Shown piece by piece: positions 8,045 to 22,566 of a stretch of 64,000 nt of DNA. Origin of the DNA: an uncultured Candidatus Saccharibacteria bacterium (GTDB lineage Bacteria > Patescibacteriota > Minisyncoccia > Phycocordibacterales > CAIZLB01); NCBI GenBank assembly GCA_964417855.1, contig CAYQJB010000001.1, positions 294,709 to 358,708 of the forward strand, read 5' to 3'. The position numbers were made by a program, and so were the translations under genes. A model generated the notes under the pieces. It searched no databases and was not told where the DNA came from. It worked only from the letters and a program-made list of their open reading frames with translations. The stretch's first letter is position 1. The number at the start of each line of letters is the position of its first letter.

Positions 8045-8893
8045 AAAAATCGCTCAACTTCAAGAAACGACGAACTCAGCATTCCTGAAATTTGAAAATT
8101 AAATTCTGTACCAGTTTTAGTGGATAACATTCATGTAGTTTAGGCCATGTGGCCGATGCTACCTGATACGTATTCTGTTTGGTCTTTTCAATACTGGAGA
8201 CAGAGCTCCATGAAGTACTACTTTAAGGGTAATGCTGCATGGGGTCGTTATCGTACTTACTCTCAAGGAGTATGATAACAAAACAGGTAACAAACAAAAG
8301 TGATTGTGGTCTTTTTATTTCCTAATAGGAAATATAAGGGCGTATGGTGGATGCCTTGACACAACATAGCGATGAAGGACGCAGCATGGCGGCGATACGC
8401 TTCGGGGAGGTGCCTAGCAACCTTTGATCCGGAGATTTCCGAATGGGGAAACCCAAGAGACTTGATCTCTTATCTTACTTTTAAGTAAGGTGCGCACCCA
8501 GTGAAGTAAAACATTCTAGTAACTGGAGGAAAAGAAAACAAGTACGTAAGTACACAATTTCGTAAATAGCGGCGAGCGAAAACGAAATAGCCCAAACCAG
8601 ACTTCCACATTGGGGATGACATTTTATCGGTTCTTTAATTTATTAGGGAACTATCATTATGCTGTCTCCTATGTGGCAGTCTGGGGTTGTAAGATAATAA
8701 TAGGATATTTATATCCAAAGAGTTACAAAATTTTTTGTTAACAGAACGCGTTGGGAAGCGCGACCAAAGAGGGTGACAGTCCCGTATGTGAAAATAAAAA
8801 ATCTCTTCTTTATTACTCTTGAGTACCCCGAGACACGAGTGGCTCGGGGGAATCCAGCAGAACTAACTGCTAAGGCTAAATATATGTTGTGAT

Positions 8894-8930
<37 letters not shown>

Positions 8931-10356
8931 CAGTCCGATGAGGACAGTGAAATAGACCTGAAACCATATGCCTACAAGGAGTCAGAGCGGACGTATTTAT
9001 ACGATCCGTCATGGCGTGCCTATTGAAGAATGAGCCAACGAGTTAATATGTATTGCTCGGCTAAATCCGCGAGGATGGAGCCATAGGGAAACCGAGTATT
9101 AATAGTGCGTCCGTATTACATATTAGACCCGAAGCCAATGCGAGCTATCCCTGGTCAGGCTGAACTTTGTCGAAAGACAAAGGGAGGGCCGAACCCGTAT
9201 GTCGTTCAACTCATTGGGATGAACTGGGGATAGAAGTGAAAAGCTAATCGAGCTTGGTAATAGCTGGTTCTCTCCGAAATAGCTTTTGGGTTAGCGTCGT
9301 GTGTTCCTCTTGGGGGTAGAGCACTGGAAGGACTCGACAGGGAGAAATCTCGCGAGTCCTATCAAACTCCGAATACCAAGAACTAAAGCACGGCAGTTAG
9401 TCCGTGGGGGCTAAGCTCCACAGGACAAAAGGGAAACAGCCCTAGATCCATATTTAAGGTCCCTAAATCTATACTAAGTGCACTTAAGGTGGTGGAATTT
9501 CTGAGACAATGAGGAGGTTTGCTTAGAAGCAGCAATCCTTGAAAGATAGCGTAATAGCTCACTCATCGAGAGATTCTGCGCCGCAGATTCGCGGGGCTAA
9601 AGTATAGTACCGAAACTTGGGGTGTCCTACTGCTTCGGCGGTAGGGCGCGGTAGGAGAGTGTTCTTGTCTGCGATGAAGGGGAAGAGGTGACTCACCCTG
9701 GAGCGTCAAGAAGTAAGAATGTTGGCACAAGTAACCACAATCGGAGTGAAAAACTCCGACGCCGAAAGAACAAGGTTTCCTTCGCAATGATTGTCATCGA
9801 AGGGTTAGTCGGGCCTAAGGGGATGGTGAGAACCGAACCCGACGGACACATGGTTAATATTCCATGACTTCTGTATACAGTGATGAAATGACGGAGTGTA
9901 GTATGAACAGCGCATAATCGGATTTGTGTCCATGCTTTAAGGAAGTTCTCTAGGTAAGTCCGGAGAGCTGATTTTAATATCAATTCCAAATAGAGTGGAG
10001 ACGTTAGGGGTTCGCCTCTAAATAATTGTTCAAAGCACGCTTCCAAGAAAATTTTCTAAACTTATGTATGCGGAAACCGTACCGAAAACCGACACAGGTG
10101 TTCAGGTCGAGTAGACCAAGGCGAACGGGTGAGAGGTCTTCAAGGAACTCGGCAAAAAAGCAGCCGTAACTTCGGAATAAGGCTCGCCCTCCCTAAAAAG
10201 AGGGTTGCAACAAAAGTATCCCTGGCAACTGTTTATCAAAAACACAGCTCCCTGCGAACTCGTAAGAGTATGTATAGGGGGTGACACCTGACCGATGCCA
10301 GAAGGTTAAACGTTGAGGGTACTATCGCAAGGTAGTGCTGATTGATGTAAGCCCTG

Positions 10357-10391
<35 letters not shown>

Positions 10392-10752
10392 TCAGCATTT
10401 GTTTTTATTAATGAATGCTGAAGAACTAGGACTGTTCATAGATGTGTTGATAAATAATGAAGAACCAAAGAATGCAAAGGAAAATTAGAGCTGCCTGTTT
10501 CAGTAAAATGAAGCGTTCAGACTGACTATATGCTGGTAAATCTGTGTGTGAAAAACACTGTAGTATCTAACACTACTAAGTTATAAAATTCGAAAGAAAA
10601 TTATTTCAAGTAAAAATGTGATTAGTGCAGACGATCAGCAGGAAAGACTAAAAAGTAATTTTTAGAATCCTCAGAAACCAAACGTCAGACTAAATAGTAA
10701 TATTTAGAAGATAGAGTTCGATCTTTATAGCGATATAAAGTTAACATAAATT
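10392..10752 (+). other. group I-like intron (ORF-less) inserted in 23S between GGTCCTAAGGT and AGCGAAATTCC (E. coli ~1917 region)
   Basis: flanking exon sequence is contiguous in E. coli 23S; insert carries group I core-like elements (CAGCAGGAAAG, GTCAGACTAAATAG, AAGATAGAGTTCG); boundaries +/-1 nt. Confidence 0.6.
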
Positions 10753-11081
10753 AGCGAAATTCCTTGTCAGGTAAGTTCTGACGCGCACGAATGGTGTAAT
10801 GACTGGGGAACTGTCTCGAAGACCCGCCCGGTGAAAATGCAATGGAGGTGAAGATGCCTCCTACCTGCAGCTAGACGAAAAGACCCCAGAAGCTTCACTG
10901 CAACTTGATATTGATTGTATGTTTTTACTGCGTAGAATAGATGGGAGAGGTTGAGATCCTGATTTCGGTTAGGGTGGACTCGTCAGTGAAATACCATTCT
11001 TTAAAAATATACATTCTAACCTCGACGGAAAAAACGTCGAGAGACAGTATCTGGTGGGCAGTTTTAGTGGGGCGCTATCCT

Positions 11082-11445
11082 CGAGGGTTTAAATTAATTT
11101 TTGAATCCTCGAACTATGGCGCCTCCAGAGATTTGTCATCTCGAAACAAATAAAAAAGGGGGACTGTAATAAGTAATTATTATTAGAAAAGTTAGTTATA
11201 TGCTGGAAAATCTGTGTCTTCAATGACTTAGAATGCAAGCTACCTATTAATTTAGGTAACAATGTTTGCATGCAGACTATCAGCAGGAAAGATTTCTATC
11301 ACAAAAAGTAAAATTGATGTAATAGAGAAATCCTCAGAGACTATACGCTAACCGTCCAGTAAAATGGATGATGATATAGTCCGATCTTTATAGCGATATA
11401 AAGCTTACTGAAAAGTAAGGCTTAGTAAAATAAGTAACATAAATG
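11082..11445 (+). other. second group I-like intron (ORF-less) in 23S just 3' of the P-loop (GGGGCGCTATCCT|...|CCTAAAAAGTAACGGAGG)
   Basis: 5' exon ends in U and insert ends in G (omega-G-like); R-like TCAGAGACTATACG and S-like GATATAGTCCG elements; 3' half homologous to first intron (shared GATCTTTATAGCGATATAAAG and ...AACATAAAT end). Confidence 0.6.
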
Positions 11446-11831
11446 CCTAAAAAGTAACGGAGGAGTCTATTAAGGTCAGCTAGGCGCGAATGGAAACCGT
11501 GCCGATAGTGCAATGGCATAAGCTGGCTTGACTGTGAGGCGTAAGTGCCAAACAGACGCGAAAGCGGAGCATAGTGAACCGAGGGTCCGCATTAGATGCG
11601 GCCAAAGATTATCTGACAAAAGCTACTCTGGGGATAACAGGCTGGTTGTGCCTAAGCGTCCATAGCGACGGCACAGTTCGGCACCTCGATGTCGGCTCGA
11701 CTTATCCTGGGGGTGAAGAAGCTCCCAAGGGTATGGCTGTTCGCCATTTAAAAAGTCACGCGAGCTGGGTTCAGACCGTCGTAAGACAGGTTGGTCTCCT
11801 ATCTGCTGCAGGCGTTGATACTTGAGAGGAA

Positions 11832-11862
<31 letters not shown>

Positions 11863-12178
11863 TGATCTCTGGTGTACCAGTTGTCTTGCCAAAGGCATCG
11901 CTGGGTAGCTATATCGGGAATGGATAAGCTCTGAAAGCATCTAAGAGCGAAGCCAACCTCAAGATAAGGTATCGTTTGAGATCCGTGAGAGATTATCACG
12001 TTGATAGGCACTAAGTATAAGCATAGTAATATGTTCAGCTGAGGTGTACTAATAAATCGATTCTTATTAGGAAATATGAAGATTCACGATCACTTTTGTT
12101 TGTGACCTAAATTACAAAATAATAATTCTGCAAGTTTTATTATAGAACCATGAAAAGACCTTTAAATTGACCGTTTCG

Positions 12179-12290
12179 TTCTGGTGACTCGTCGGAGGGG
12201 CCACACCTGATCTCATTCCGAACTCAGAAGTTAAGACCTCCAGAGGCGATGATACTCACTTGTTGGGGAAAGTAGCTCGTCGCCAGAACA
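12179..12290 (+). rRNA. rrf: 5S ribosomal RNA
   Basis: TTCTGGTGAC...CCACACCTGATCTCATTCCGAACTCAGAAGTTAAG...GTCGCCAGAACA with pairing termini. Confidence 0.85.
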
Positions 12291-12526: not shown

Positions 12527-13282
12527 ATGAACTGGTCTATTCAAAAACAACTTATTTACGGTATTACATTTGTAATGATTTTATCAGCACTAATTGGCTT
12601 ACCATTGTATTTTAACTTCTTTAATAAGTCACCAACTTGTTTTGATAATAAGCGGAATCAGGATGAGACTGGAGTTGACTGTGGAGGTATTTGTACAAAG
12701 GCCTGCACAGCAGATGTAATTGGAACACCGTTGCTTTTGTGGTCTAGAGCTTTTACAATTGCTAATGGAAAAAATAATTTAGTTGCGTATCTTCAAAATC
12801 CAAATCTAAATTACATTTCAGAGCCTTTTTCTTATGTATTTAATGTTTTTGATGATAACAATATTTTACTTGGAACAAGGGAGGGTGTTGTAAGTGCTAC
12901 GAATGAGAAAAATTTTGTTGTCTTTGAACAAGCTTTTGATGCTGGGCAAAGAAAAATTGGTAAGGTTATTTTTGAGATAACATCTCCTGTTACATGGATC
13001 AGAAAACCATCAGAAAAGGCAAAGGTCACAGTATCATCGGATCAAATAATTTCTGTAGCTGGTATACCAACATTGACTTCAACGATTACTAATACAACAG
13101 TAAAAACGTACACTAATTTTTATGTTGTCGCAATTGTATATGATGTAGATGGAAATGCTAAGGTGGTATCAAGAACATTAGTCGATGAATTGAGAGGAAA
13201 CGGAAAGGCTGATGTTGTGTTTACGTGGCCATATCTAACAGATTTAAAGTATTCTAAAATAGAACTGTTGCCAAAGATCTAG
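12527..13282 (+). CDS. hypothetical membrane-anchored protein (N-terminal TM, Cys-rich extracellular region)
   Basis: 251-aa ORF, N-terminal hydrophobic helix, CGGICTKAC motif; first gene of the RodA-SecDF cluster. Confidence 0.55.
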   Translation: MNWSIQKQLIYGITFVMILSALIGLPLYFNFFNKSPTCFDNKRNQDETGVDCGGICTKACTADVIGTPLLLWSRAFTIANGKNNLVAYLQNPNLNYISEPFSYVFNVFDDNNILLGTREGVVSATNEKNFVVFEQAFDAGQRKIGKVIFEITSPVTWIRKPSEKAKVTVSSDQIISVAGIPTLTSTITNTTVKTYTNFYVVAIVYDVDGNAKVVSRTLVDELRGNGKADVVFTWPYLTDLKYSKIELLPKI

Positions 13283-13330
13283 TTTTCAAACTTATAGAAA
13301 TTAAATATTCTACAAATAACCTTTATTAAA

Positions 13331-14473
13331 ATGATTGTGATAGATGAAATATTATCCTCAAAGAAAAAATGGCGCCCAGATCTCTATATTTTAGGCGCTG
13401 TATTGCCAATATTAGGAGCGGGGCTTATAACAATGAAATCTTTTGTTGGCAGCAGTGATTATTTTGGTAGACAATTAGTTTGGATAATTGTTGCGTTAAT
13501 GGCTTTTTTTGTATCAAGTAAAATAGATTTTAGAGTATTAAAGCGAACTTCAGTAATTGTTGTTTTATACGGCTTGTCTACATTAATGCTTGTTGCGCTG
13601 TTTGTTTTTGGATCTATTTCAAACGGAGCAAAAAGTTGGATAAATGTTGGGCTTTTTTCTATTCAACCATCTGATCCCGCAAAATTAATTCTAATATTGC
13701 TACTAGCTAAGTATTTTTCTAGACGTCATATGGAAATTGCAAATATACGCCATATAATTGTTTCTGGGGCCTATACTTTTATTGTTTTCATTTTGGTGGC
13801 ACTGCATCCAGACTTAGGTTCTGCTATTACAATTTTTGCAATTTGGTTTGGAATGGTTCTATTTTCTGGTATTTCAAAGAAACACCTCGCTATAGTTTTT
13901 TTAAGTGGTTCATTGGTATTTTTTGGGGCTTGGAATCTGGTTTTCAAGGAGTATCAAAAAAATAGAATCATTAACTTCATCACTCCCTCGGCTGATGTTA
14001 GGGGTAGTGGATATAATGCAAGACAAGCGATGATAACCGTTGGTTCTGGTGAATTATTTGGGCGTGGAATTGGCTATGGTACTCAATCAAGACTACAGTT
14101 CCTTCCTGAATATCAAACAGACTTTGTTTTTGCAGCTTTTGCAGAAGAATGGGGTTTTGTAGGTGTAATAATTCTAATGAGTTTATTTGCATTAATTATT
14201 GCCAGAATTTTATATATAGCTTCAAAAGGGGAGACAAACTTTGAGATATTATTTGGGGTTGGGCTCGCTATATTCTTTATGTCGCACTTAATAATTAATA
14301 TAGGAATGAACATTGGCCTCATGCCGGTAACTGGTATTCCAGTTCCATTTATGAGTTATGGTGGGTCTCACTTGGTTACAGAATTTGTTGGTTTAGGTCT
14401 TTTGATGTCCATGAGGAAGTATTCTAGGCCTATACATAAGGACAGAACCAATAATGAGTTTCTGGGATACTAG
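13331..14473 (+). CDS. SEDS-family peptidoglycan glycosyltransferase (FtsW/RodA)
   Basis: 380 aa polytopic; GSGYNARQAMITVGSGELFGRGIGYGTQ...LPEYQTDFVFAAFAEEWGF typical of FtsW/RodA. Confidence 0.9.
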   Translation: MIVIDEILSSKKKWRPDLYILGAVLPILGAGLITMKSFVGSSDYFGRQLVWIIVALMAFFVSSKIDFRVLKRTSVIVVLYGLSTLMLVALFVFGSISNGAKSWINVGLFSIQPSDPAKLILILLLAKYFSRRHMEIANIRHIIVSGAYTFIVFILVALHPDLGSAITIFAIWFGMVLFSGISKKHLAIVFLSGSLVFFGAWNLVFKEYQKNRIINFITPSADVRGSGYNARQAMITVGSGELFGRGIGYGTQSRLQFLPEYQTDFVFAAFAEEWGFVGVIILMSLFALIIARILYIASKGETNFEILFGVGLAIFFMSHLIINIGMNIGLMPVTGIPVPFMSYGGSHLVTEFVGLGLLMSMRKYSRPIHKDRTNNEFLGY

Positions 14474-14572
14474 GCTTTCTGCTTTTTTTGTGTTCCATAT
14501 CAATCTGTTCTTTACAGAGCTTTTGTTTTTATAATATATTTTATAACACTTCTATTGGCATAATGTACACCC

Positions 14573-14600
14573 TTGTCACAATTCTTTAAGTGAGTATAAT
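14573..14600 (+). promoter_or_regulatory. sigma70-type promoter TTGTCA-16-TATAAT for secDF, 12 nt upstream of ATG (short leader)
   Basis: hexamers read directly; no SD before ATG at 14613. Confidence 0.45.
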
Positions 14601-14612
14601 TGGCGTTATCAT

Positions 14613-16112
14613 ATGAAAAAAGTCAGAATTAGCGCAATCTTACTGCTTATCTTCGGATTCGCAGTACTAGGATTTGATTATTATTCACAAGTTCCGGGCC
14701 AAGGATTTATTTCTAATTTTCCTTTTAAACTTGGCTTAGATCTTAGCGGTGGATCACACTTGGTTTATCAAGCAGACCTTCAAAAATCTGGCTCCGTTGG
14801 GGGTGTTAAGGATGTTGATGGAGCAATGGAAAGTCTAAGGGGGGTTATTGAATCAAGAATTAACGCCTTTGGAGTTTCAGAGCCTATCATTCAAACAGAA
14901 AAATCTACAATTAACGGGCAAGAAGTTCGTAAATTAGTTGTAGAGCTTCCTGGTGTAACAGACCTGAAGAGTGCTATTGATACAATAGGAAAGACTCCAG
15001 TTCTTGAATTTAAGATTCAAAAAGAGGGGGTGGGAGAAGCTGATCTTACAAAAGCTACAGAGCTACAAAAAGCCCTTAACGAGCTATCTACATCATCTAG
15101 CGCTTCAGCTGTAGCTTCAGCAAATGCTGTTGATGCAACAAGCTCATTAATTTCACTATTAACATCAACAAGTACAAATAACCAAACAGCTAAAGCAACA
15201 TCAACTGTTGCTGCTACAGTAGACTATTCAAAGCTATATGATGACGTTGGACTAACAGGTCAATACCTTAAATCAGCGCAAGTACAATTTGATACAAACA
15301 CAAGACAACCTCTTGTTGCAATTTCTTTTGATGAAACAGGAAAGGCAAAGTTTGCAGAGGTTACTGGAAAAAACATCGGAAAGATTTTAGCTATTTTCCT
15401 AGACGGAAAGCCAATTTCTACTCCAGTAATTAGAGATCAAATCAAGGATGGAAGCGCTGTGATTTCAGGAAACTTTACTCCAGAGGAGGCAAAGTCACTT
15501 GCTAGAGACCTAAGATATGGTGCTCTACCTGTTCCTATAACACTTATTGGAACTCAATCAATTGGTGCTTCTCTTGGTGAAAACGCACTTAAGGCTAGTG
15601 TTGATGCAGGACTTTGGGGATTCCTTATTATCGCAATATTCCTATTGCTATGGTATAGACTTCCTGGTCTTGTAGCTATTGTTTCATTATCAATGTATAC
15701 AATATTCATGCTAGCAATATTTAAGATGATTCCGGTTGTTCTAACTTCAGCTGGACTTGCTGCCTTTATTCTATCTATTGGTATGGCGGTTGATGGAAAT
15801 ATTCTAATCTTTGAAAGAATGAGAGAAGAACTTGCAAAAGGCCACTCTCTTGAAGATGGTATAAGAGAAGGTTTTGCGCGCGCATGGCTTTCAATTAGAG
15901 ATTCAAACTTATCAAGTATTATTACTGCTGTTATTCTTTATTTCTTTGCAACATCTGCATTAATTAAAGGTTTTGCATTAGTATTCTTAATTGGTGTGTT
16001 GGTTTCAATGTTTACAGCTATTACAATTTCAAGAACTTTCCTTCTTGCACTTGGTGTTAAGAAACACAAGGGAATTGTAAAGTTTTTATTCAGTAATGGC
16101 CTAAGACGCTAA
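14613..16112 (+). CDS. secD: protein translocase subunit SecD (with Ser/Thr/Ala-rich low-complexity insertion)
   Basis: LDLSGGSHLVYQAD, C-terminal RND-like TM bundle; insertion SSSASAVASANAVDATSS... Confidence 0.95.
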   Translation: MKKVRISAILLLIFGFAVLGFDYYSQVPGQGFISNFPFKLGLDLSGGSHLVYQADLQKSGSVGGVKDVDGAMESLRGVIESRINAFGVSEPIIQTEKSTINGQEVRKLVVELPGVTDLKSAIDTIGKTPVLEFKIQKEGVGEADLTKATELQKALNELSTSSSASAVASANAVDATSSLISLLTSTSTNNQTAKATSTVAATVDYSKLYDDVGLTGQYLKSAQVQFDTNTRQPLVAISFDETGKAKFAEVTGKNIGKILAIFLDGKPISTPVIRDQIKDGSAVISGNFTPEEAKSLARDLRYGALPVPITLIGTQSIGASLGENALKASVDAGLWGFLIIAIFLLLWYRLPGLVAIVSLSMYTIFMLAIFKMIPVVLTSAGLAAFILSIGMAVDGNILIFERMREELAKGHSLEDGIREGFARAWLSIRDSNLSSIITAVILYFFATSALIKGFALVFLIGVLVSMFTAITISRTFLLALGVKKHKGIVKFLFSNGLRR

Positions 16113-16135
16113 TTTAAAAGACTAAAAATAATATT

Positions 16136-17116
16136 ATGTTTGTAGTTAAATACAGAAAAATTTTTTACACGTTATCAATACTCCTAGTATTATTCTCTAT
16201 ATTTTCAATTTCAAAATATGGACTAAATTACGGAATTGATTTCAAAGGTGGTTCAATTATTGAAGTTGAATACAAGGGCGCAAAACCATCTCATGATGAG
16301 ATTACATCAATTGTTAAAAATGCTGGTGTCACAAGTGAAATAGTTGTAAGACCAACGGGGGATATGGGTTATATTATTAGAACTGCCGATTTAGCATCTA
16401 GTACAATTGATTCAGTTACAGCGAGTCTAAAGACTGGAGTTGCTGGAACATCAACAGCCACAACTTCTGCTGTTGCCGCTTTTTCAGATTCAAATAACTC
16501 TGGTGTAGCAACATCAACAGCCATTAAAGGAGAAATAAAAAGAATGGATACAGTAGGACCGATTCTTGGTCAAGAGCTTCAATCAAAGGCTTGGACTTCA
16601 ATTCTTTTTGTTATACTTGCGATTGTTTTGTTCATCACATTTGCATTTAGACATGTTTCAAAGCCTGTCTCATCATGGAAATATGGGCTGTCAGCCGTTA
16701 TTGCACTTGCTCATGACGTATTGGTTCCAACTGGAATCTACGTGTTCCTAGGAAGGAATGGAGGCTTTGAAATCGACGCACTCTTTGTCACTGCTATTCT
16801 TGTTATACTTGGATTCTCAGTTCACGATACAATTGTTGTGTTTGATAGAACAAGAGAGAACCTAAAGCTAGATGATCATCATAAGGATGCATTTGATAAA
16901 ACTGTTGGAAAGAGTATTAGTCAAACATTCACTAGATCTATAAACACTTCATTGGTTACAGTGCTAGCGTTGGTTGCTCTATATATCTTTGGGGCTGAGG
17001 CAACTAGAAACTTCTCATTGATATTGATTATTGGTATTGTTTTGGGAACATACTCATCAGTATTTCTAGGATCTCCACTTTTGGTTACTTTTTGGAAGGG
17101 ACAAAAGAATAACTAG
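16136..17116 (+). CDS. secF: protein translocase subunit SecF
   Basis: GIDFKGGSIIEVEY and C-terminal TM region typical of SecF. Confidence 0.95.
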   Translation: MFVVKYRKIFYTLSILLVLFSIFSISKYGLNYGIDFKGGSIIEVEYKGAKPSHDEITSIVKNAGVTSEIVVRPTGDMGYIIRTADLASSTIDSVTASLKTGVAGTSTATTSAVAAFSDSNNSGVATSTAIKGEIKRMDTVGPILGQELQSKAWTSILFVILAIVLFITFAFRHVSKPVSSWKYGLSAVIALAHDVLVPTGIYVFLGRNGGFEIDALFVTAILVILGFSVHDTIVVFDRTRENLKLDDHHKDAFDKTVGKSISQTFTRSINTSLVTVLALVALYIFGAEATRNFSLILIIGIVLGTYSSVFLGSPLLVTFWKGQKNN

Positions 17117-17257
17117 TCTATTGAGCATGGGGCATTAGATTGCGGTCAGGTAATAGATTAGAAGACAAACTGAGGTCAGACAATAGAAGATATGGTATAA
17201 TCGTAAACATCAAACAATTAGTTTGGTGTTTATTGTTTTAATTTAACTAAAGTACCG

Positions 17258-17980
17258 ATGAATAAAATATCAGTTAAGATCTCATGGAAATCCGGTTTAG
17301 AGACATTCAAGAAAAATTGGCAAATTCTAATATATGCAGTAGCTGTACCGTTCCTTGTTGGTGTGGTTATGGACGAAGCTTTTAAAATTAATGATATGAA
17401 GAAGTTGGTAACTGAGTCTTTATATCCCTTGTTTGGGACTAAGGCTTTATACCCCTTAATGCTGCTTATTTTATACTATGTAGTCAAGTTTTTGATGCAG
17501 GTATTATTTAATGCAGGTCAAACAAAGATAAAACTAGATTCTATTGAAGGCAGTGAGACAAAATTTTCTGACCTATTCAATTCCCAGGGTGTATATTTGA
17601 GACTTATAGCTGTCACCGTGATTTATTCGCTTGCAGTCCTAGGGGGTATGATATTATTGATTATTCCGGGAATATACATAGCTATAAGATATTGTTTTGC
17701 TTCCACATTGATTGTAGACAAGAAGATGGGGATAGGGGAGGCTTTTGCTAAATCAAGAGCGATGACTGAGGGGAAAATGGTGGAATTATTTCTGTTTTTC
17801 ATATTGTCTGGCCTCCTAGTTCTATCTGGTCTAATTGCCTTGGGAGTCGGAATTGTTGTAACCTTTATAATCTTTGAGCTAGCATTCCTTCATTTATATA
17901 AATCTCTACTTAATCAATCTGAAGAGCAAGTGAGTGGTGGTCAAATGGAAATCGAGGAAATTTCAACTTTAGAGCAGTAA
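17258..17980 (+). CDS. hypothetical polytopic membrane protein
   Basis: 240 aa, 5-6 predicted TM helices, no recognisable catalytic motif. Confidence 0.55.
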   Translation: MNKISVKISWKSGLETFKKNWQILIYAVAVPFLVGVVMDEAFKINDMKKLVTESLYPLFGTKALYPLMLLILYYVVKFLMQVLFNAGQTKIKLDSIEGSETKFSDLFNSQGVYLRLIAVTVIYSLAVLGGMILLIIPGIYIAIRYCFASTLIVDKKMGIGEAFAKSRAMTEGKMVELFLFFILSGLLVLSGLIALGVGIVVTFIIFELAFLHLYKSLLNQSEEQVSGGQMEIEEISTLEQ

Positions 17981-18179: not shown

Positions 18180-18367
18180 TACGACCACGCCACTGATGAT
18201 TTTCACAAATCATTTGATTAAATCGCAGGGGGCCGTCCTAGGAATCTCCCAGGAATATTGAGTTAGGTAAAACTAATAAAATATTTCAGGCATTTCTAAA
18301 GACATCTTTGACAACTAAATGACAACCAACAAACGTCCTTTTTTTTGTTCTGTTTGAGTTTAATTTT

Positions 18368-19840
<1,473 letters not shown>

Positions 19841-20056
19841 TGAAAAATGCGTACATGAATTTCATGTATTAGCTGAATACGGTTGATCGAACTTAATTTA
19901 TTAAGCTCAATGAGATTATGCCTCGAGAATGCATAAGGAAGGTATAACCTAAATATACTGCCTCCTGGGAACAAGGCCAGGCCAAACAGAACAATAATAA
20001 GGACGGTTGAGGTTGTCATTTAGTCGCCAAAGTACATATTTTATATGATAAAAGTA

Positions 20057-20078
20057 CTCCGCAAGCGGGGTTTTTTTA
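20057..20078 (+). terminator. small GC hairpin + T7 tract in the 16S-tRNA-Ile spacer (terminator-like or processing element)
   Basis: CTCCGCAAGCGGGG followed by TTTTTTT. Confidence 0.3.
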
Positions 20079-20189
20079 TTGCTTTGTTTTTCTTAAAATA
20101 GTCTTTAAAATAGACTTGTTTTTAATGGGATAATTTGATACATTATAAACCACAAACAGCAAAGGTTTGACAAGTCTGTTTGTAAGAAT

Positions 20190-20263
20190 GCGTGTGTAGC
20201 TCAGCTGGTTAGAGCACTTCACTGATAATGAAGAGGCCGCAGGTTCGAGTCCTGCCACACGCA
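20190..20263 (+). tRNA. tRNA-Ile (anticodon GAT), CCA not encoded
   Basis: acceptor GCGTGTG/CACACGC, D-arm AGCTCAGCTGGTTAGAGC, anticodon loop CTGATAA, T-arm GGTTCGAGTCC. Confidence 0.9.
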
Positions 20264-20302
20264 CAAAGTAAGTCTCAAGTTTGAATCTATAAGTTATAAA
20301 AT

Positions 20303-20327
20303 CTGCAGGGTAACCTGTGGATTTTTT
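20303..20327 (+). terminator. putative intrinsic terminator after tRNA-Ile
   Basis: CTGCAGG-gtaa-CCTGTGG (7 bp incl. 2 G-U) + TTTTTT. Confidence 0.4.
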
Positions 20328-20359
20328 AATTGATTTTTGCAATATACCATATATGATAT

Positions 20360-21925
20360 ATGTATATGAAAAGCAAAACAGAGTTAAAAGTCAAAGTATC
20401 TACTAATCCTAAGGTAACAGAAAGTAATAAAAATTTGGGATTCTTTATTAAACAACTTCGAGAGGATAGAAATCTAACTCAAACAGATTTTGCTAAGCTT
20501 TTGAAAACATCACAAAGTGCGGTAGCTAGGATTGAGAATGGGGGACAGAACATGACAACAGAAGAATTGAATAGAATAAGTATTGCTCTTGGAAGAAAAA
20601 TTATGACTATTTCAGATTCTATTGATGTAGAAATTAATGGGGGAAGAAAACTTTCTGGAACTATCGCAACGAATACATCTAAAAATGGGGCGCTTGGTCT
20701 TATTTGTGCATCACTTTTAAATAAAGGAAAAACTCGTCTGCATGGAATACCTCGTATTGAAGAGGTTCAAAGAATTATAGAATTAATGGAAAGTATTGGT
20801 ATTTCAATAAAATGGATTGAAAAAAATACTTTGGAAATTATTGTTCCAAAAAAGTTAAAAACGGAGAATATGGATAAGGTCGCAGCAGGAAGAATTAGAT
20901 CCGGCTTGATGATGATTGGCCCAATGATCCATCTAGAAAGTATATTTAAAATACCTCACTCAGGAGGTTGTAAAATGGGTCAAAGGACAATCTCTGCTCA
21001 TAGATATGGTCTAGAAGATTTGGGTGTAAAAATTGATACAAAAGAGGATCATTATCTAATTCAATCAAAAAAACTAGCGCCCGCTCATATTATAATGTCA
21101 GAGTCTTCCGATACTGCGGCCGAGAATTTATTAATGGCGGCAGCCCTAATAAAAGGGAAGACTACAATTCAGTTTGCACCACCAAACTATCAGGTTCAGG
21201 AAGTATGTTTCTTTCTGGAAACCTTGGGTGTGAAAATTGAGGGCGTTGGTTCAACCACGTTAATCGTTCATGGAATTGATGAAATTAATATGGATGTTGA
21301 TTATTATAATAGTGAAGATCCAACAGAATCTATGATGTTCATTACAGCAGGTATTGTAACTGGATCTACTCTGACTATAACGAGATGTCCAATTGATTTT
21401 CTAGCCCTGGAAATGTTTAAGTTAAAAAAGATGGGATTGAAGTATAAGCAGACATCTGTTTATTATGCTGTGAATGGTAGAACAAAATTAGTTGATATTA
21501 CTATTTACCCATCAAAACTAGTTGCTCCACTTGATAAAATTTCAGCCCAACCATATCCTGGAATTAATACTGATAACCTGCCATTCTTTGTGCCAATTGC
21601 TGTGTTGGCTAAGGGGACAACTTTGATTCATGATTGGATGTGGGAGAATAGAGCAATTTATTTTACAGAGTTAAATAGGCTTGGGGCCAATATCAACCTG
21701 GCGGATCCTCACAGAGTTTTTATTCAAGGGCCCACAGAATTGAAGGCTGCACAAATTGTTTGCCCTTTAGCACTACGCCCTGCAATGATTATTATGGTTG
21801 CCATGCTTGGAGCAAAAGGAAAATCTATTCTTAGAAACATTTACCCAATAAGCAGGGGGTATGAGGATATTGCTGAACGATTGAATGGAATAGGGGCGGA
21901 CATTAAGGTGATAAAGGAGATATAG
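20360..21925 (+). CDS. murA: XRE-family helix-turn-helix domain fused to UDP-N-acetylglucosamine 1-carboxyvinyltransferase (MurA)
   Basis: residues ~25-80 are a Cro/C1-type HTH (LTQTDFAKLLKTSQSAVARIENG); remainder matches MurA incl. TSKNGALGLI N-terminus and active-site loop HSGGCKMGQRTISAH (catalytic Cys). Confidence 0.85.
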   Translation: MYMKSKTELKVKVSTNPKVTESNKNLGFFIKQLREDRNLTQTDFAKLLKTSQSAVARIENGGQNMTTEELNRISIALGRKIMTISDSIDVEINGGRKLSGTIATNTSKNGALGLICASLLNKGKTRLHGIPRIEEVQRIIELMESIGISIKWIEKNTLEIIVPKKLKTENMDKVAAGRIRSGLMMIGPMIHLESIFKIPHSGGCKMGQRTISAHRYGLEDLGVKIDTKEDHYLIQSKKLAPAHIIMSESSDTAAENLLMAAALIKGKTTIQFAPPNYQVQEVCFFLETLGVKIEGVGSTTLIVHGIDEINMDVDYYNSEDPTESMMFITAGIVTGSTLTITRCPIDFLALEMFKLKKMGLKYKQTSVYYAVNGRTKLVDITIYPSKLVAPLDKISAQPYPGINTDNLPFFVPIAVLAKGTTLIHDWMWENRAIYFTELNRLGANINLADPHRVFIQGPTELKAAQIVCPLALRPAMIIMVAMLGAKGKSILRNIYPISRGYEDIAERLNGIGADIKVIKEI

Positions 21926-21991
21926 TTTTTTAGATATATACAACTTAAGTAAGTGGTTTAGCGAGAGGTTTGATACAATTATTTTACATAC

Positions 21992-22020
21992 TTGCAAAAT
22001 ACATGCATTTTGCATATAAT
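21992..22020 (+). promoter_or_regulatory. consensus promoter TTGCAA-17-TATAAT with embedded palindromic operator TGCAAAAT-n6-ATTTTGCA upstream of dinJ-yafQ
   Basis: hexamers and 8-bp inverted repeat read directly. Confidence 0.55.
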
Positions 22021-22026
22021 ATATGT

Positions 22027-22302
22027 ATGACTACAAACGTACAAATAAGAGTAGACACAAAGTTAAAGAATGAGGCAGAAAAGACTTTGAATAAACTGGG
22101 TCTGGATTTACCTACGGCTTTTAGAATTTTCCTAAATAAAATAAACATTACTGGGGGAATACCTTTTCCTGTAAATAATGATAGTTATTTCAATTATACA
22201 AAAGAACAGGAGGATGAGATACTGGATGCCTATAAAAATGGTAAAAGATCAAAGGAGTTTAAAAATGCCAAGGAATTAATTAAGCATCTAAGGTCTCAAT
22301 AA
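22027..22302 (+). CDS. dinJ: type II antitoxin, DinJ/RelB family
   Basis: VQIRVDTKLKNEAEKTLNKLGLDLPTAFRIFLNKI resembles DinJ N-terminal ribbon-helix-helix; ORF track starts earlier (21970), internal M at 22027 preferred. Confidence 0.75.
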   Translation: MTTNVQIRVDTKLKNEAEKTLNKLGLDLPTAFRIFLNKINITGGIPFPVNNDSYFNYTKEQEDEILDAYKNGKRSKEFKNAKELIKHLRSQ

Positions 22303-22305
22303 AAA

Positions 22306-22566
22306 ATGAAGATAGTTACTACAGATAAGTATGATAAAAAATATAAAAAACTAAGTAATAATCTAAAAGATAAGATAGATAGAGCACTGGAGAAATTTGC
22401 AAAAGATCCTTTTGACCCATCTCTACTAAACCATGGTCTACAAGGAGGACTTAATGGTTTTAACTCTATTAAGGCAGGTTTTGATTTAAGAATTATTCTT
22501 AAGGAAGAGAATGGTTATATATTGGTTTTACTGATTGATTTAGGAAAACATGATCATGTTTATTAG
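22306..22566 (+). CDS. yafQ: type II toxin, YafQ/RelE family mRNA interferase
   Basis: 86 aa; HGLQGGLNGFNSIKAGFDLRIIL...DLGKHDHVY resembles YafQ (HPLQGSWKGYRDAHVEPDWILIY...); 3-nt gap after antitoxin. Confidence 0.75.
   Translation: MKIVTTDKYDKKYKKLSNNLKDKIDRALEKFAKDPFDPSLLNHGLQGGLNGFNSIKAGFDLRIILKEENGYILVLLIDLGKHDHVY

What the first reader, a model, noticed from the sequence alone, without database searches (positions are those of the whole stretch)
20360..21925. MurA fused in-frame to an N-terminal XRE-type helix-turn-helix domain
The 521-aa ORF begins with a clear Cro/C1-type HTH (FIKQLREDRNLTQTDFAKLLKTSQSAVARIENGGQNMTTEELNRISIALG). It continues without a stop into a complete MurA (enolpyruvyl transferase) including the catalytic-Cys loop HSGGCKMGQRTISAH. 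Canonical MurA (~420 aa) has no DNA-binding domain. A fusion suggests transcriptional autoregulation, or moonlighting, of the first committed peptidoglycan step. This is striking in a reduced genome where MurA is probably essential. An internal start at M82 producing a separate MurA cannot be excluded.
Basis: partly seen in the sequence, partly recalled or inferred. Interest (0 to 1): 0.55.

Follow-up and report, generated by a model that had tools for sequence, protein, structure and literature searches.

The report
MurA enzyme fused to its own repressor
In this candidate-phyla-radiation bacterium, the enzyme that starts cell-wall synthesis (MurA) carries a conserved DNA-binding domain. Comparative evidence indicates that this domain binds an 18-bp palindrome on the gene's own promoter, so the enzyme probably represses its own gene and, in relatives, other cell-wall genes.

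Summary
ORF 20360-21925 (+) encodes a 521-aa protein with an XRE/HTH_3 domain (aa 30-80), a roughly 10-aa linker and a full-length MurA with all catalytic residues.

It is not an assembly artefact. All 240 best database homologues listed, and all 80 species genomes retrieved by protein pattern, carry the same fusion. They come from Patescibacteria such as Zambryski-, Taylor-, Lipton- and Doudnabacteria. M82 is not conserved.

New findings:
- A sharply bounded 18-bp palindrome (TATATCAYATRTGATATA; window 20343-20360, one mismatch) lies upstream of the gene in 77 of 81 loci. It overlaps the extended -10 of a mostly leaderless promoter.
- In relatives it sits between the fusion gene and divergent murB or mreB. 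A variant precedes murC.
- The same palindrome is found in promoters of Parcubacterial Gp49-toxin/XRE-antitoxin operons, whose antitoxin HTH is homologous.
- Recognition-helix S51T co-varies with operator T5G/A14C (6/7 versus 0/85).
- A subfamily has lost the MurA active site but keeps the HTH and the operator. It sits next to an unfused murA operon.

Best reading: a BirA/NadR-like bifunctional enzyme and autorepressor. No experimental test was possible, and six literature searches found no description.

The parts
20360..21925 (+). HTH-MurA fusion ORF (521 aa from ATG 20360; probably 519 aa from ATG 20366)
20343..20360 (.). 18-bp palindromic candidate operator TATACCATATATGATATA. It has one mismatch to the family consensus TATATCAYATRTGATATA and is the only such site in the window.
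   Evidence: It is the only match in 64 kb at up to 3 mismatches, where 0.12 are expected by chance. It is conserved in 77 of 81 loci, and information content falls to about 0 outside the 18 bp.
20330..20357 (+). Promoter-like site: -35 TTGATT (20330-20335), 16-nt spacer, -10 TATGAT (20352-20357). The -10 lies inside the palindrome, and the predicted transcription start is about 20364-20367, giving a leaderless or near-leaderless ATG at 20366.
   Evidence: In relatives the right arm plus 2 nt reads TGATATA[ACT]T, an extended -10, in 43 of 67 loci. The modal gap to the start codon is 8 nt (17 loci).
20435..20599 (+). XRE/Cro-C1 type HTH domain (aa 26-80); recognition helix TSQSAVARIENGGQN is aa 50-64 (nt 20507-20551)
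   Evidence: Pfam HTH_3. R34, Q41, T50, Q52, R57, E59, G61, Q63 and N64 are invariant and S51, S53, A54 and A56 nearly so in 121 sequences. AF2 predicts helices at 21-36, 41-48, 52-59 and 67-77.
20600..20626 (+). Short linker (aa 81-89). It includes M82 (20603-20605), which is not conserved.
   Evidence: pLDDT is below 50 at residues 82-84. The distance from the HTH motif to GGCKM is 160-162 aa in 67 loci. The M82 codon could act as a start in only 9 of 72 loci.
20627..21916 (+). Complete MurA (enolpyruvyl transferase) domain, aa 90-519. The catalytic loop is HSGGCKMGQRTISAH at nt 20957-21001, with Cys204 at 20969-20971.
20316..20322 (.). TGTGGAT (reverse complement ATCCACA, the core of a DnaA-box-like 9-mer), 27 nt upstream of the palindrome. 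It recurs at this position in relatives; its function is unknown.
   Evidence: ATCCACA or TGTGGAT lies 21-31 nt upstream of the palindrome in 19 of 77 loci, against a background of about 0.012 per 80 nt.

Best explanation
The gene encodes a bifunctional protein. Its C-terminal 430 residues are a catalytically competent MurA, the first committed step of peptidoglycan synthesis. Its N-terminal XRE-type helix-turn-helix binds, presumably as a dimer, the 18-bp palindrome TATA(C/T)CATATATGATATA. That palindrome overlaps the (extended) -10 element of the gene's own, probably leaderless, promoter at 20343-20360.

Occupying the operator would block RNA polymerase, so the enzyme would repress its own synthesis. 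In related genomes the same operator sits in the divergent murB/HTH-murA or mreB/HTH-murA intergenic region, and a variant precedes murC. The protein would therefore act there as a pathway-level repressor of cell-wall genes.

What is shown by comparison:
- the fusion is conserved;
- the operator is conserved and sits on the promoter;
- the HTH and the operator are paired in two gene contexts;
- the recognition helix and the operator co-vary.

What is inferred:
- that binding represses rather than activates (from the overlap with the -10);
- that the ligand state of the MurA domain modulates DNA binding or dimerisation, as in BirA. The candidate states are open or closed with UDP-GlcNAc and PEP, or the UDP-MurNAc 'dormant' complex. 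This inference rests on the paralogues that lost catalysis but kept the MurA fold, the HTH and the operator.
For: 1. Conserved fusion. All 120 best hits to this protein (63-90% identity) and 120 hits to a distant member (38-48% identity) have HTH_3 plus EPSP_synthase. All 80 GTDB species loci were found by MurA peptide patterns alone, and all match from residue 39 or earlier, 79 of them from residue 26 or earlier.

2. Constraint on the HTH. Its recognition helix is as constrained as the active site: T50, Q52, R57, E59, G61, Q63 and N64 are invariant, and S51, S53, A54 and A56 nearly so.

3. Intact active site. The equivalents of K22, C115, R120, D305 and R397 (K108, C204, R209, D405, R499) are invariant. 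The MurA fold matches solved structures at TM 0.85-0.91.

4. The palindrome.
- It is present at up to 2 mismatches upstream of the gene in 77 of 81 loci that were not selected for it.
- Information content drops to zero at its edges.
- It occurs once in the 64-kb window.
- Apart from these upstream sites it gave only 7 other matches at up to 2 mismatches in 641 kb of flanking DNA. Six of these, together with one 2-mismatch site in L032, lie just upstream of murC.

5. Promoter geometry. The right arm plus 2 nt reads TGATATA[ACT]T, an extended -10. The modal gap to ATG is 8 nt, which implies leaderless transcripts. In the window the -10 TATGAT lies inside the palindrome.

6. Second context. An exact-match metagenome scan found the palindrome next to 27-28 HTH-MurA genes and in the TTGACA promoters of 12-13 Gp49-toxin/XRE-antitoxin operons. 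The antitoxin HTH is 37-44% identical and shares the recognition helix T[TK]QSN[IV]ARxExGxQN. An antitoxin locus not selected by the palindrome also has it.

7. Specificity co-variation. TSQS to TTQS in the recognition helix goes with TATATC...GATATA to TATAGC...GCTATA. This holds for 6 of 7 TTQS loci against 0 of 85 TSQS loci (Fisher p about 1e-8), in at least 3 clades. Three of four prospective look-ups fitted.

8. Dead paralogues. Twelve fused proteins have lost the Cys loop and key Arg residues but keep the HTH. All 4 that were looked up sit divergent to an operon with an unfused, intact MurA plus MurB or Mur ligases, and have the palindrome or a symmetric variant between them.
Against: - There is no experimental evidence of DNA binding, repression or enzyme activity.
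- The palindrome is AT-rich and overlaps the core promoter, so part of its conservation could reflect promoter function.
- About 80 of the 125 exact matches in metagenomes are in unrelated singleton contexts. This is compatible with chance in a very large and partly AT-rich collection, but the collection's size was not known and no expected number was calculated.
- MurA is normally monomeric (established knowledge). The predicted HTH has four helices and lacks the fifth helix that often helps XRE dimers form, so how two HTHs are brought to one palindrome is unexplained.
- The protein scores below the TIGR01072 MurA equivalog cut-off (313 against 392.7).
- One TTQS protein has the consensus operator (L217), and TTQS antitoxins also use the consensus, so the co-variation is not deterministic.
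- In this window no other mur gene or second operator is present. Here only autoregulation can be claimed.
Confidence: 0.7

Rival explanations
1. The palindrome is the operator of a separate XRE protein, such as the Gp49-associated antitoxin, or is simply a strong (bidirectional) promoter element. On this view the fused HTH does something else or binds elsewhere.
For: The same palindrome occurs in toxin-antitoxin promoters with their own HTH antitoxin. The right arm matches an extended -10, and in about half of the loci a gene is transcribed divergently, so a palindrome could supply two -10 elements.
Against: - The palindrome is equally conserved where no divergent gene exists. Examples are this window, where tRNA-Ile lies on the same strand, and L001-L009.
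- The left arm is as conserved as the right.
- The operator base co-varies with residue 51 of the fused HTH itself.
- No toxin-antitoxin module of that type is present in the window or in any of the 105 murA loci.
Confidence: 0.1
2. The HTH is a protein-protein interaction module, as in RodZ, whose XRE-like HTH binds MreB. It would tether MurA to the cytoskeleton or to another partner, and would not bind DNA.
For: RodZ is a precedent (established knowledge; PMC9804626 discusses the RodZ HTH). mreB is the divergent neighbour of HTH-murA in the Taylor- and Liptonbacteria-like clades.
Against: - There is no hit to the RodZ-type HTH_25 family at E of 0.01 or better.
- The invariant residues are the classical DNA-recognition positions.
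- A cognate palindrome tracks the gene and co-varies with the recognition helix.
- The closest relatives of the HTH are DNA-binding antitoxins.
Confidence: 0.06
3. In this genome the fused protein is only a regulator, or is enzymatically weak. The real MurA activity would come from another gene outside the window, as in the degenerate subfamily.
For: The score is below the TIGR01072 and NF009470 equivalog cut-offs. Genomes exist in which a fused copy coexists with an unfused MurA. Only 64 kb of the genome is visible.
Against: - All catalytic residues are intact here, and in 114 of 126 distant relatives they are intact too. Where a second MurA exists, the fused copy has visibly decayed.
- None of the 80 loci with an intact fusion has a second EPSP_synthase gene within 4 kb either side.
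- murB and the mur ligases flank the intact fusion in many genomes.
Confidence: 0.1
4. The fusion is an artefact, or is functionally split: a frameshift or stop was missed, or translation from M82 yields a separate MurA.
For: An ATG at codon 82 is preceded by GGAAG.
Against: Hundreds of independent assemblies have the same uninterrupted architecture with a fixed linker length. Codon 82 could act as a start in only 9 of 72 loci, and it is GTA, GTT or TTA in several relatives at 85-90% identity.
Confidence: 0.03

Closest known systems
BirA (biotin protein ligase / bio operon repressor, E. coli)
   Same: It is an enzyme with an N-terminal helix-turn-helix in one polypeptide. It binds a palindromic operator that overlaps divergent promoters of its own pathway's genes. 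Its DNA binding is coupled to the ligand state of the enzyme domain. (This is established knowledge. For HTH-MurA, the operator between divergent murB or mreB and murA is.)
   Different: BirA has a winged HTH rather than an XRE type, a different enzyme fold and pathway, and does not regulate its own gene. Ligand-controlled dimerisation is demonstrated for BirA and only inferred here.
NadR and PutA (other enzyme-repressor 'trigger enzymes')
   Same: In both, a DNA-binding domain is fused to a metabolic enzyme and represses genes of the same pathway. PutA also acts on a divergent intergenic region (established knowledge, recalled and not tested here).
   Different: The enzyme families and DNA-binding folds differ (PutA uses a ribbon-helix-helix). 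None concerns cell-wall synthesis. No homology beyond the generic HTH was tested.
Canonical MurA (E. coli, E. cloacae, C. jejuni; PDB 1UAE, 3SU9, 5UJS)
   Same: The enolpyruvyl-transferase fold is full length (TM up to 0.91). The catalytic Lys, Cys, Arg, Asp and Arg residues are present. Relatives have murB and mur ligase neighbours.
   Different: It has an extra 89-residue N-terminal HTH and linker. Fold-search alignments show only 23-28% sequence identity to solved MurAs. Its loop motif is GGCKMGQRT, and it scores below the TIGR01072 equivalog cut-off.
XRE-type antitoxins of Gp49/HigB-like toxin-antitoxin modules in Parcubacteria
   Same: The HTH is homologous (37-44% identity) with the same recognition-helix pattern. 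The same 18-bp palindrome is embedded in the promoter.
   Different: In the antitoxins the HTH is C-terminal to a toxin-binding segment of about 40 aa, and the partner is a toxin. Here the HTH is N-terminal to an enzyme, and no cognate Gp49 toxin gene is adjacent.
Firmicute control of MurA (ReoM/IreB-ClpCP proteolysis; PASTA-kinase inhibition)
   Same: It regulates the same committed step of peptidoglycan synthesis (PMC12077105 abstract).
   Different: That control is post-translational and uses separate proteins. Here the proposed control is transcriptional and built into the enzyme.

Membership tests
MurA (UDP-N-acetylglucosamine 1-carboxyvinyltransferase) | Full-length match to the EPSP_synthase/MurA profile above curated cut-offs | tested here: met
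   Pfam PF00275 scores 161 bits (cut-off 22.8) and covers model positions 2-417. NCBIfam NF006873, the MurA subfamily, scores 326 bits (cut-off 297).
MurA (UDP-N-acetylglucosamine 1-carboxyvinyltransferase) | Score above the equivalog-level models (TIGR01072, NF009470) | tested here: not met
   TIGR01072 scores 313 against 392.7. NF009470 scores 224 against 552. This is a divergent lineage of MurA.
MurA (UDP-N-acetylglucosamine 1-carboxyvinyltransferase) | Catalytic residues (E. coli K22, C115, R120, D305, R397; numbering from memory) | tested here: met
   K108, C204, R209, D405 and R499 align with those motifs in PDB MurAs. They are invariant in the family.
MurA (UDP-N-acetylglucosamine 1-carboxyvinyltransferase) | Two-domain enolpyruvyl-transferase fold | tested here: met
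   The AF2 model has pLDDT 85.8. Foldseek finds 45 MurA or NikO chains with TM(target) 0.82-0.91.
MurA (UDP-N-acetylglucosamine 1-carboxyvinyltransferase) | Enzyme activity, fosfomycin sensitivity, and being the sole murA of the genome | not testable with these tools
   Only 64 kb of the genome is visible, and it contains no second murA.
XRE / Cro-C1 helix-turn-helix (Pfam HTH_3) | Profile match above the gathering score, and helical HTH architecture | tested here: met
   HTH_3 scores 45.2 bits (cut-off 23) and HTH_31 scores 38.5 (cut-off 27). Four helices are predicted, with helix 3 as the recognition helix.
XRE / Cro-C1 helix-turn-helix (Pfam HTH_3) | Sequence-specific binding to a palindromic operator | not testable with these tools
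   The support is indirect: a conserved palindrome, the same pairing in toxin-antitoxin operons, and co-variation between helix and operator.
Bifunctional enzyme-repressors (BirA/NadR/PutA-type trigger enzymes) | An intact enzyme domain and a DNA-binding domain in one polypeptide, with an operator at promoters of the same pathway | tested here: met
Bifunctional enzyme-repressors (BirA/NadR/PutA-type trigger enzymes) | DNA binding switched by the enzyme's substrate, product or intermediate | not testable with these tools
   This is inferred only from the pseudo-MurA regulators that keep the fold.
Type II toxin-antitoxin antitoxin (HigA/XRE type) | Adjacent cognate toxin gene co-transcribed with the HTH protein | tested here: not met
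   tRNA-Ile lies upstream. The downstream pair is a self-contained RelB/YafQ-like module. There is no Gp49 homologue in the window.
RodZ-type HTH (protein-binding) | HTH_25 profile match followed by a transmembrane segment | tested here: not met
   There is no HTH_25 hit at E of 0.01 or better. The HTH is followed directly by the MurA domain.

The most novel reading that the evidence does not exclude
The MurA fold serves here as the metabolite-sensing domain of a transcription factor, reading UDP-GlcNAc, PEP or UDP-MurNAc. Its operator is shared with a very abundant Parcubacterial Gp49-toxin/XRE-antitoxin family. HTH-MurA and the antitoxins could then compete for each other's promoters. This would wire toxin-antitoxin state, or phage and plasmid invasion, directly to cell-wall and MreB expression in these minimal cells.
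Probability: 0.15. Interest if true: 0.85.

Novelty: new variant of a known kind. Interest (0 to 1): 0.66.

Why it matters
Transcriptional control of murA is poorly understood in any bacterium, and the known controls of this step are mostly post-translational. CPR/Patescibacteria have very few transcription factors and almost no experimentally defined regulons.

This finding gives a protein, a precise 18-bp operator, a promoter geometry (leaderless, extended -10) and a small predicted regulon (murA, murB, murC, mreB). All of these can be tested in vitro with a single recombinant protein and do not require cultivating the organism.

It would add the first committed step of peptidoglycan synthesis to the short list of enzymes that are also repressors of their own pathway. 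The catalytically dead paralogues show an enzyme turning into a dedicated regulator. The S51T / T5G-A14C pairing is a ready-made specificity-swap experiment.

Tried and rejected
- Assembly artefact or internal start at M82: rejected.
- RodZ-like HTH: no HTH_25 signal.
- Other operator copies or other mur genes in the window: none. A regulon cannot be shown for this genome.
- A Gp49/XRE toxin-antitoxin module in the window or on any murA locus: none, so co-occurrence in one genome remains untested.
- Junction-only query (aa 20-140) against the 50%-identity representative library: mostly gene fragments were returned. It was useful only for finding divergent full-length members.
- PDB search with the HTH alone: only weak generic XRE hits, the best being PezA at E 1e-4. 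This gives no mechanistic lead.
- Six literature searches for MurA with HTH, XRE, CPR, Parcubacteria or trigger enzyme: no description of this fusion.
- DnaA-box search: the full 9-mer TTATCCACA is not enriched in the window. Only the 7-mer core is positionally enriched upstream of the palindrome across loci.
- The structure model gives no information on how the HTH docks on MurA or on dimerisation.
Full report
OBSERVATION. The ORF at 20360-21925 (+) is real and uninterrupted at 521 aa. Pfam finds HTH_3 at aa 30-80 (E 9.5e-12) and a full-length EPSP_synthase/MurA domain at aa 93-508 (E 4.7e-47). NCBIfam places the enzyme part in the MurA subfamily NF006873 (326 bits, cut-off 297), but it falls below the TIGR01072 equivalog cut-off (313 against 392.7). 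Against solved structures, the enzyme part aligns end to end with MurA chains (best 5UJS, E 1e-58). The motifs that carry the catalytic Lys, Cys, Arg, Asp and Arg are present. An AlphaFold2 model (pLDDT 85.8) has a four-helix HTH (helices 21-36, 41-48, 52-59, 67-77), a low-confidence linker (residues 78-87) and a MurA fold that matches PDB MurAs at TM 0.85-0.91.

THE FUSION IS NOT AN ARTEFACT, AND M82 IS NOT A FAMILY FEATURE.
- All 120 best homologues (63-90% identity, 500-531 aa) carry both domains. Where named, the sources are Patescibacteria, Parcubacteria, Zambryskibacteria or Minisyncoccia.
- A scan of one genome per GTDB species used two peptide patterns from the MurA part only. It found 350 encoding stretches. 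The best 80 all match from residue 39 or earlier, 79 of them from residue 26 or earlier, so they are fused.
- The distance from the HTH motif to the Cys loop is 160-162 residues in 67 loci.
- Position 82 is Val or Ile in most sequences and Met in 15 of 121. The codon there could act as a start in 9 of 72 loci.
- The HTH recognition helix is as constrained as the active site. T50, Q52, R57, E59, G61, Q63 and N64 are invariant, and S51, S53, A54 and A56 are nearly so.

A CONSERVED PALINDROME ON THE PROMOTER. I aligned the DNA upstream of the 80 loci and found an 18-bp perfect palindrome, TATATCAYATRTGATATA.
- At up to 2 mismatches it is present upstream of the gene in 77 of 81 loci. Two of the four exceptions are cut at a contig end. 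Information content falls to about zero immediately outside the 18 bp.
- In the window it is TATACCATATATGATATA at 20343-20360. This is the only match in 64 kb even at 3 mismatches, where 0.12 are expected by chance.
- The right arm plus two bases reads TGATATA[ACT]T in 43 of 67 loci, which is the extended -10 consensus TGnTATAAT. The commonest gap to the start codon is 8 nt (17 loci). That places the A of ATG at the expected transcription start, so the transcripts would be leaderless.
- In the window the consensus scan finds TTGATT, a 16-nt spacer and TATGAT, with the -10 inside the palindrome. ATG 20366 (M3) is therefore a better start than ATG 20360.
- An operator that covers the -10 implies repression. 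This is an inference.

GENE CONTEXT IN RELATIVES.
- In about 41 of 80 loci, murB (MurB_C plus FAD_binding_4) is transcribed divergently from HTH-murA, so the palindrome lies between them. Mur ligases (murC/D/E-like) follow downstream in many loci.
- In the more distant Lipton- and Taylorbacteria-like members, the divergent neighbour is mreB, again with the palindrome in the intergenic region.
- In six Zambryskibacteria-like loci, a second, slightly degenerate palindrome lies immediately upstream of a minus-strand murC-like gene.
- In this window the upstream neighbours are 16S rRNA and tRNA-Ile on the same strand. No murB, murC, mreB or second murA is present. Only autoregulation can be claimed for this locus.

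THE SAME HTH-OPERATOR PAIR IN ANOTHER CONTEXT.
- It placed 27-28 sites next to HTH-MurA genes.
- It placed 12-13 sites in the promoter of a two-gene operon. The promoter has TTGACA, then 0-4 nt, then the palindrome. The operon encodes a Gp49/HigB-like toxin (PF05973) and an XRE antitoxin.
- The remaining sites are singletons, compatible with chance in a very large and partly AT-rich collection, although no expected number was calculated.
- The antitoxin HTH is 37-44% identical to the MurA-fused HTH and shares the recognition helix pattern.
- The antitoxin family has at least 1234 members. Where named, they are from Parcubacteria or Nealsonbacteria.
- A member fetched without reference to the palindrome also has it at its promoter.
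- Antitoxins binding palindromes in their own promoters is established knowledge. The recurrence of this HTH type with this palindrome in two unrelated operons argues that they are a cognate pair.

CO-VARIATION. Three fused proteins whose operator is the symmetric variant TATAGC...GCTATA all had TTQS instead of TSQS at the start of the recognition helix. I then looked up four further TTQS proteins, and three had the G/C variant. Overall this is 6 of 7 TTQS against 0 of 85 TSQS (Fisher p about 1e-8, not corrected for phylogeny). The cases come from at least three clades: Zambryski-like L062, Doudnabacteria L204, and the Taylor-like and P0101 groups. The rule is not absolute. L217 and the TTQS antitoxins use the consensus operator.

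PARALOGUES THAT BECAME PURE REGULATORS.
- Twelve divergent fused proteins keep the recognition helix (TSQSA[VI]ARIE.G.QN) but have lost the Cys loop and the Arg120/Arg397 equivalents. By contrast, 114 of 126 other distant members keep the full K-R-C-R-D-R set.
- All four that I could look up lie divergent to an operon with an unfused MurA of normal length plus MurB and/or Mur ligases. That MurA is 437-450 aa, has an intact PGGCxLGxRS loop, and is only 27-31% identical to the fused type.
- The palindrome, or in one case a symmetric variant, lies in the short intergenic region.
- This is the arrangement expected if the fused protein's regulatory role is under selection independently of catalysis. 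It also suggests that the MurA fold acts as a sensor domain (inference).

MECHANISM PROPOSED. This is a bifunctional MurA and autorepressor of the BirA/NadR/PutA kind. Two HTHs occupy the palindrome over the -10 of a leaderless promoter and shut off murA here, plus murB, mreB and murC in relatives. Solved MurA structures include UDP-MurNAc/PEP-Cys complexes (entries listed). From established knowledge, MurA also closes on UDP-GlcNAc. Either state could control dimerisation or DNA affinity, but this step is untested. How a normally monomeric enzyme with a four-helix HTH dimerises is an open problem.

RIVALS. I considered four alternatives and consider each less likely: another protein binds the palindrome, the HTH is RodZ-like and binds protein, the protein is a regulator only in this genome, or the fusion is an artefact or is split at an internal start. 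The reasons are given in the rival entries.

NOVELTY. Pipelines already annotate these proteins as MurA, and the Pfam architecture is precomputed in databases, so the fusion as such is visible in public data. Six full-text searches found no paper that describes it or its operator. I rate it a new variant of a known kind (enzyme-repressor 'trigger enzymes'), with a concrete and testable operator and regulon in a phylum where regulation is almost unexplored.

Noticed in passing
window 8321-12288 and 18361-20264: The rRNA genes are unlinked and in an unusual order. 23S (3753 nt against a 2925-nt model, with a group I intron at 11132-11403 and further unexplained extra length) is followed by 5S. 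About 6 kb of protein-coding ORFs (12527-17980) follow, and then come 16S and tRNA-Ile(GAT), with no tRNA-Ala or 23S after it.
   Followed up: no
window 21970-22302 and 22306-22566: A RelB-like antitoxin (PF04221) and a YafQ/ParE-like toxin pair lie directly downstream of HTH-murA. They are shared only with the closest relatives (L001, L003, L004, L008) and are unrelated to the Gp49/XRE module that shares the operator.
   Followed up: partly
window 20316-20322; loci L001-L080, 21-31 nt upstream of the palindrome: The 7-mer ATCCACA or TGTGGAT (the core of the DnaA-box consensus TTATCCACA) sits at a fixed distance upstream of the palindrome, in either orientation, in 19 of 77 loci where about 1 is expected. 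Similar sequences (TCCACA, TTCACA; the exact 7-mer in L167) lie upstream of several Gp49/XRE promoters. Its function is unknown.
   Followed up: partly
L106, L107, L133, L167, L169, L170, L189, L192, L208-L215: An abundant Parcubacterial toxin-antitoxin family (Gp49/HigB-like toxin plus an XRE antitoxin of about 100 aa) has TTGACA, then 0-4 nt, then TATATCATATATGATATA in its promoter. The annotated toxin start (MIY...) lies inside the palindrome, so the true start or the transcription start site is unclear.
   Followed up: partly
L201, L202/L203, L220, L221: Catalytically degenerate HTH-pseudoMurA genes lie divergent to operons with an unfused MurA, MurB and Mur ligases. Their downstream neighbours include a Ddl fused to a Peptidase_C39_2 domain (L220 9493-11082).
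   Followed up: partly
L032, L040, L044, L062, L066, L079 (about 1.3-1.9 kb upstream of HTH-murA): A second, degenerate palindrome (for example TATACCATATATGAGATAAT) lies immediately before a minus-strand murC-like gene. It also looks like an extended -10 with a leaderless start.
   Followed up: yes
window 20417-20635 (HTH) against PDB: The closest solved HTH is PezA (2P5T, E 1e-4). PezA is the antitoxin of PezT/zeta, whose toxin phosphorylates UDP-GlcNAc into a MurA inhibitor (PMC4179160 abstract). The similarity is weak and generic and is probably coincidence.
   Followed up: no
window 20076-20342 (-): An 88-aa ORF on the minus strand overlaps tRNA-Ile and the promoter region. It is almost certainly spurious.
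   Followed up: no
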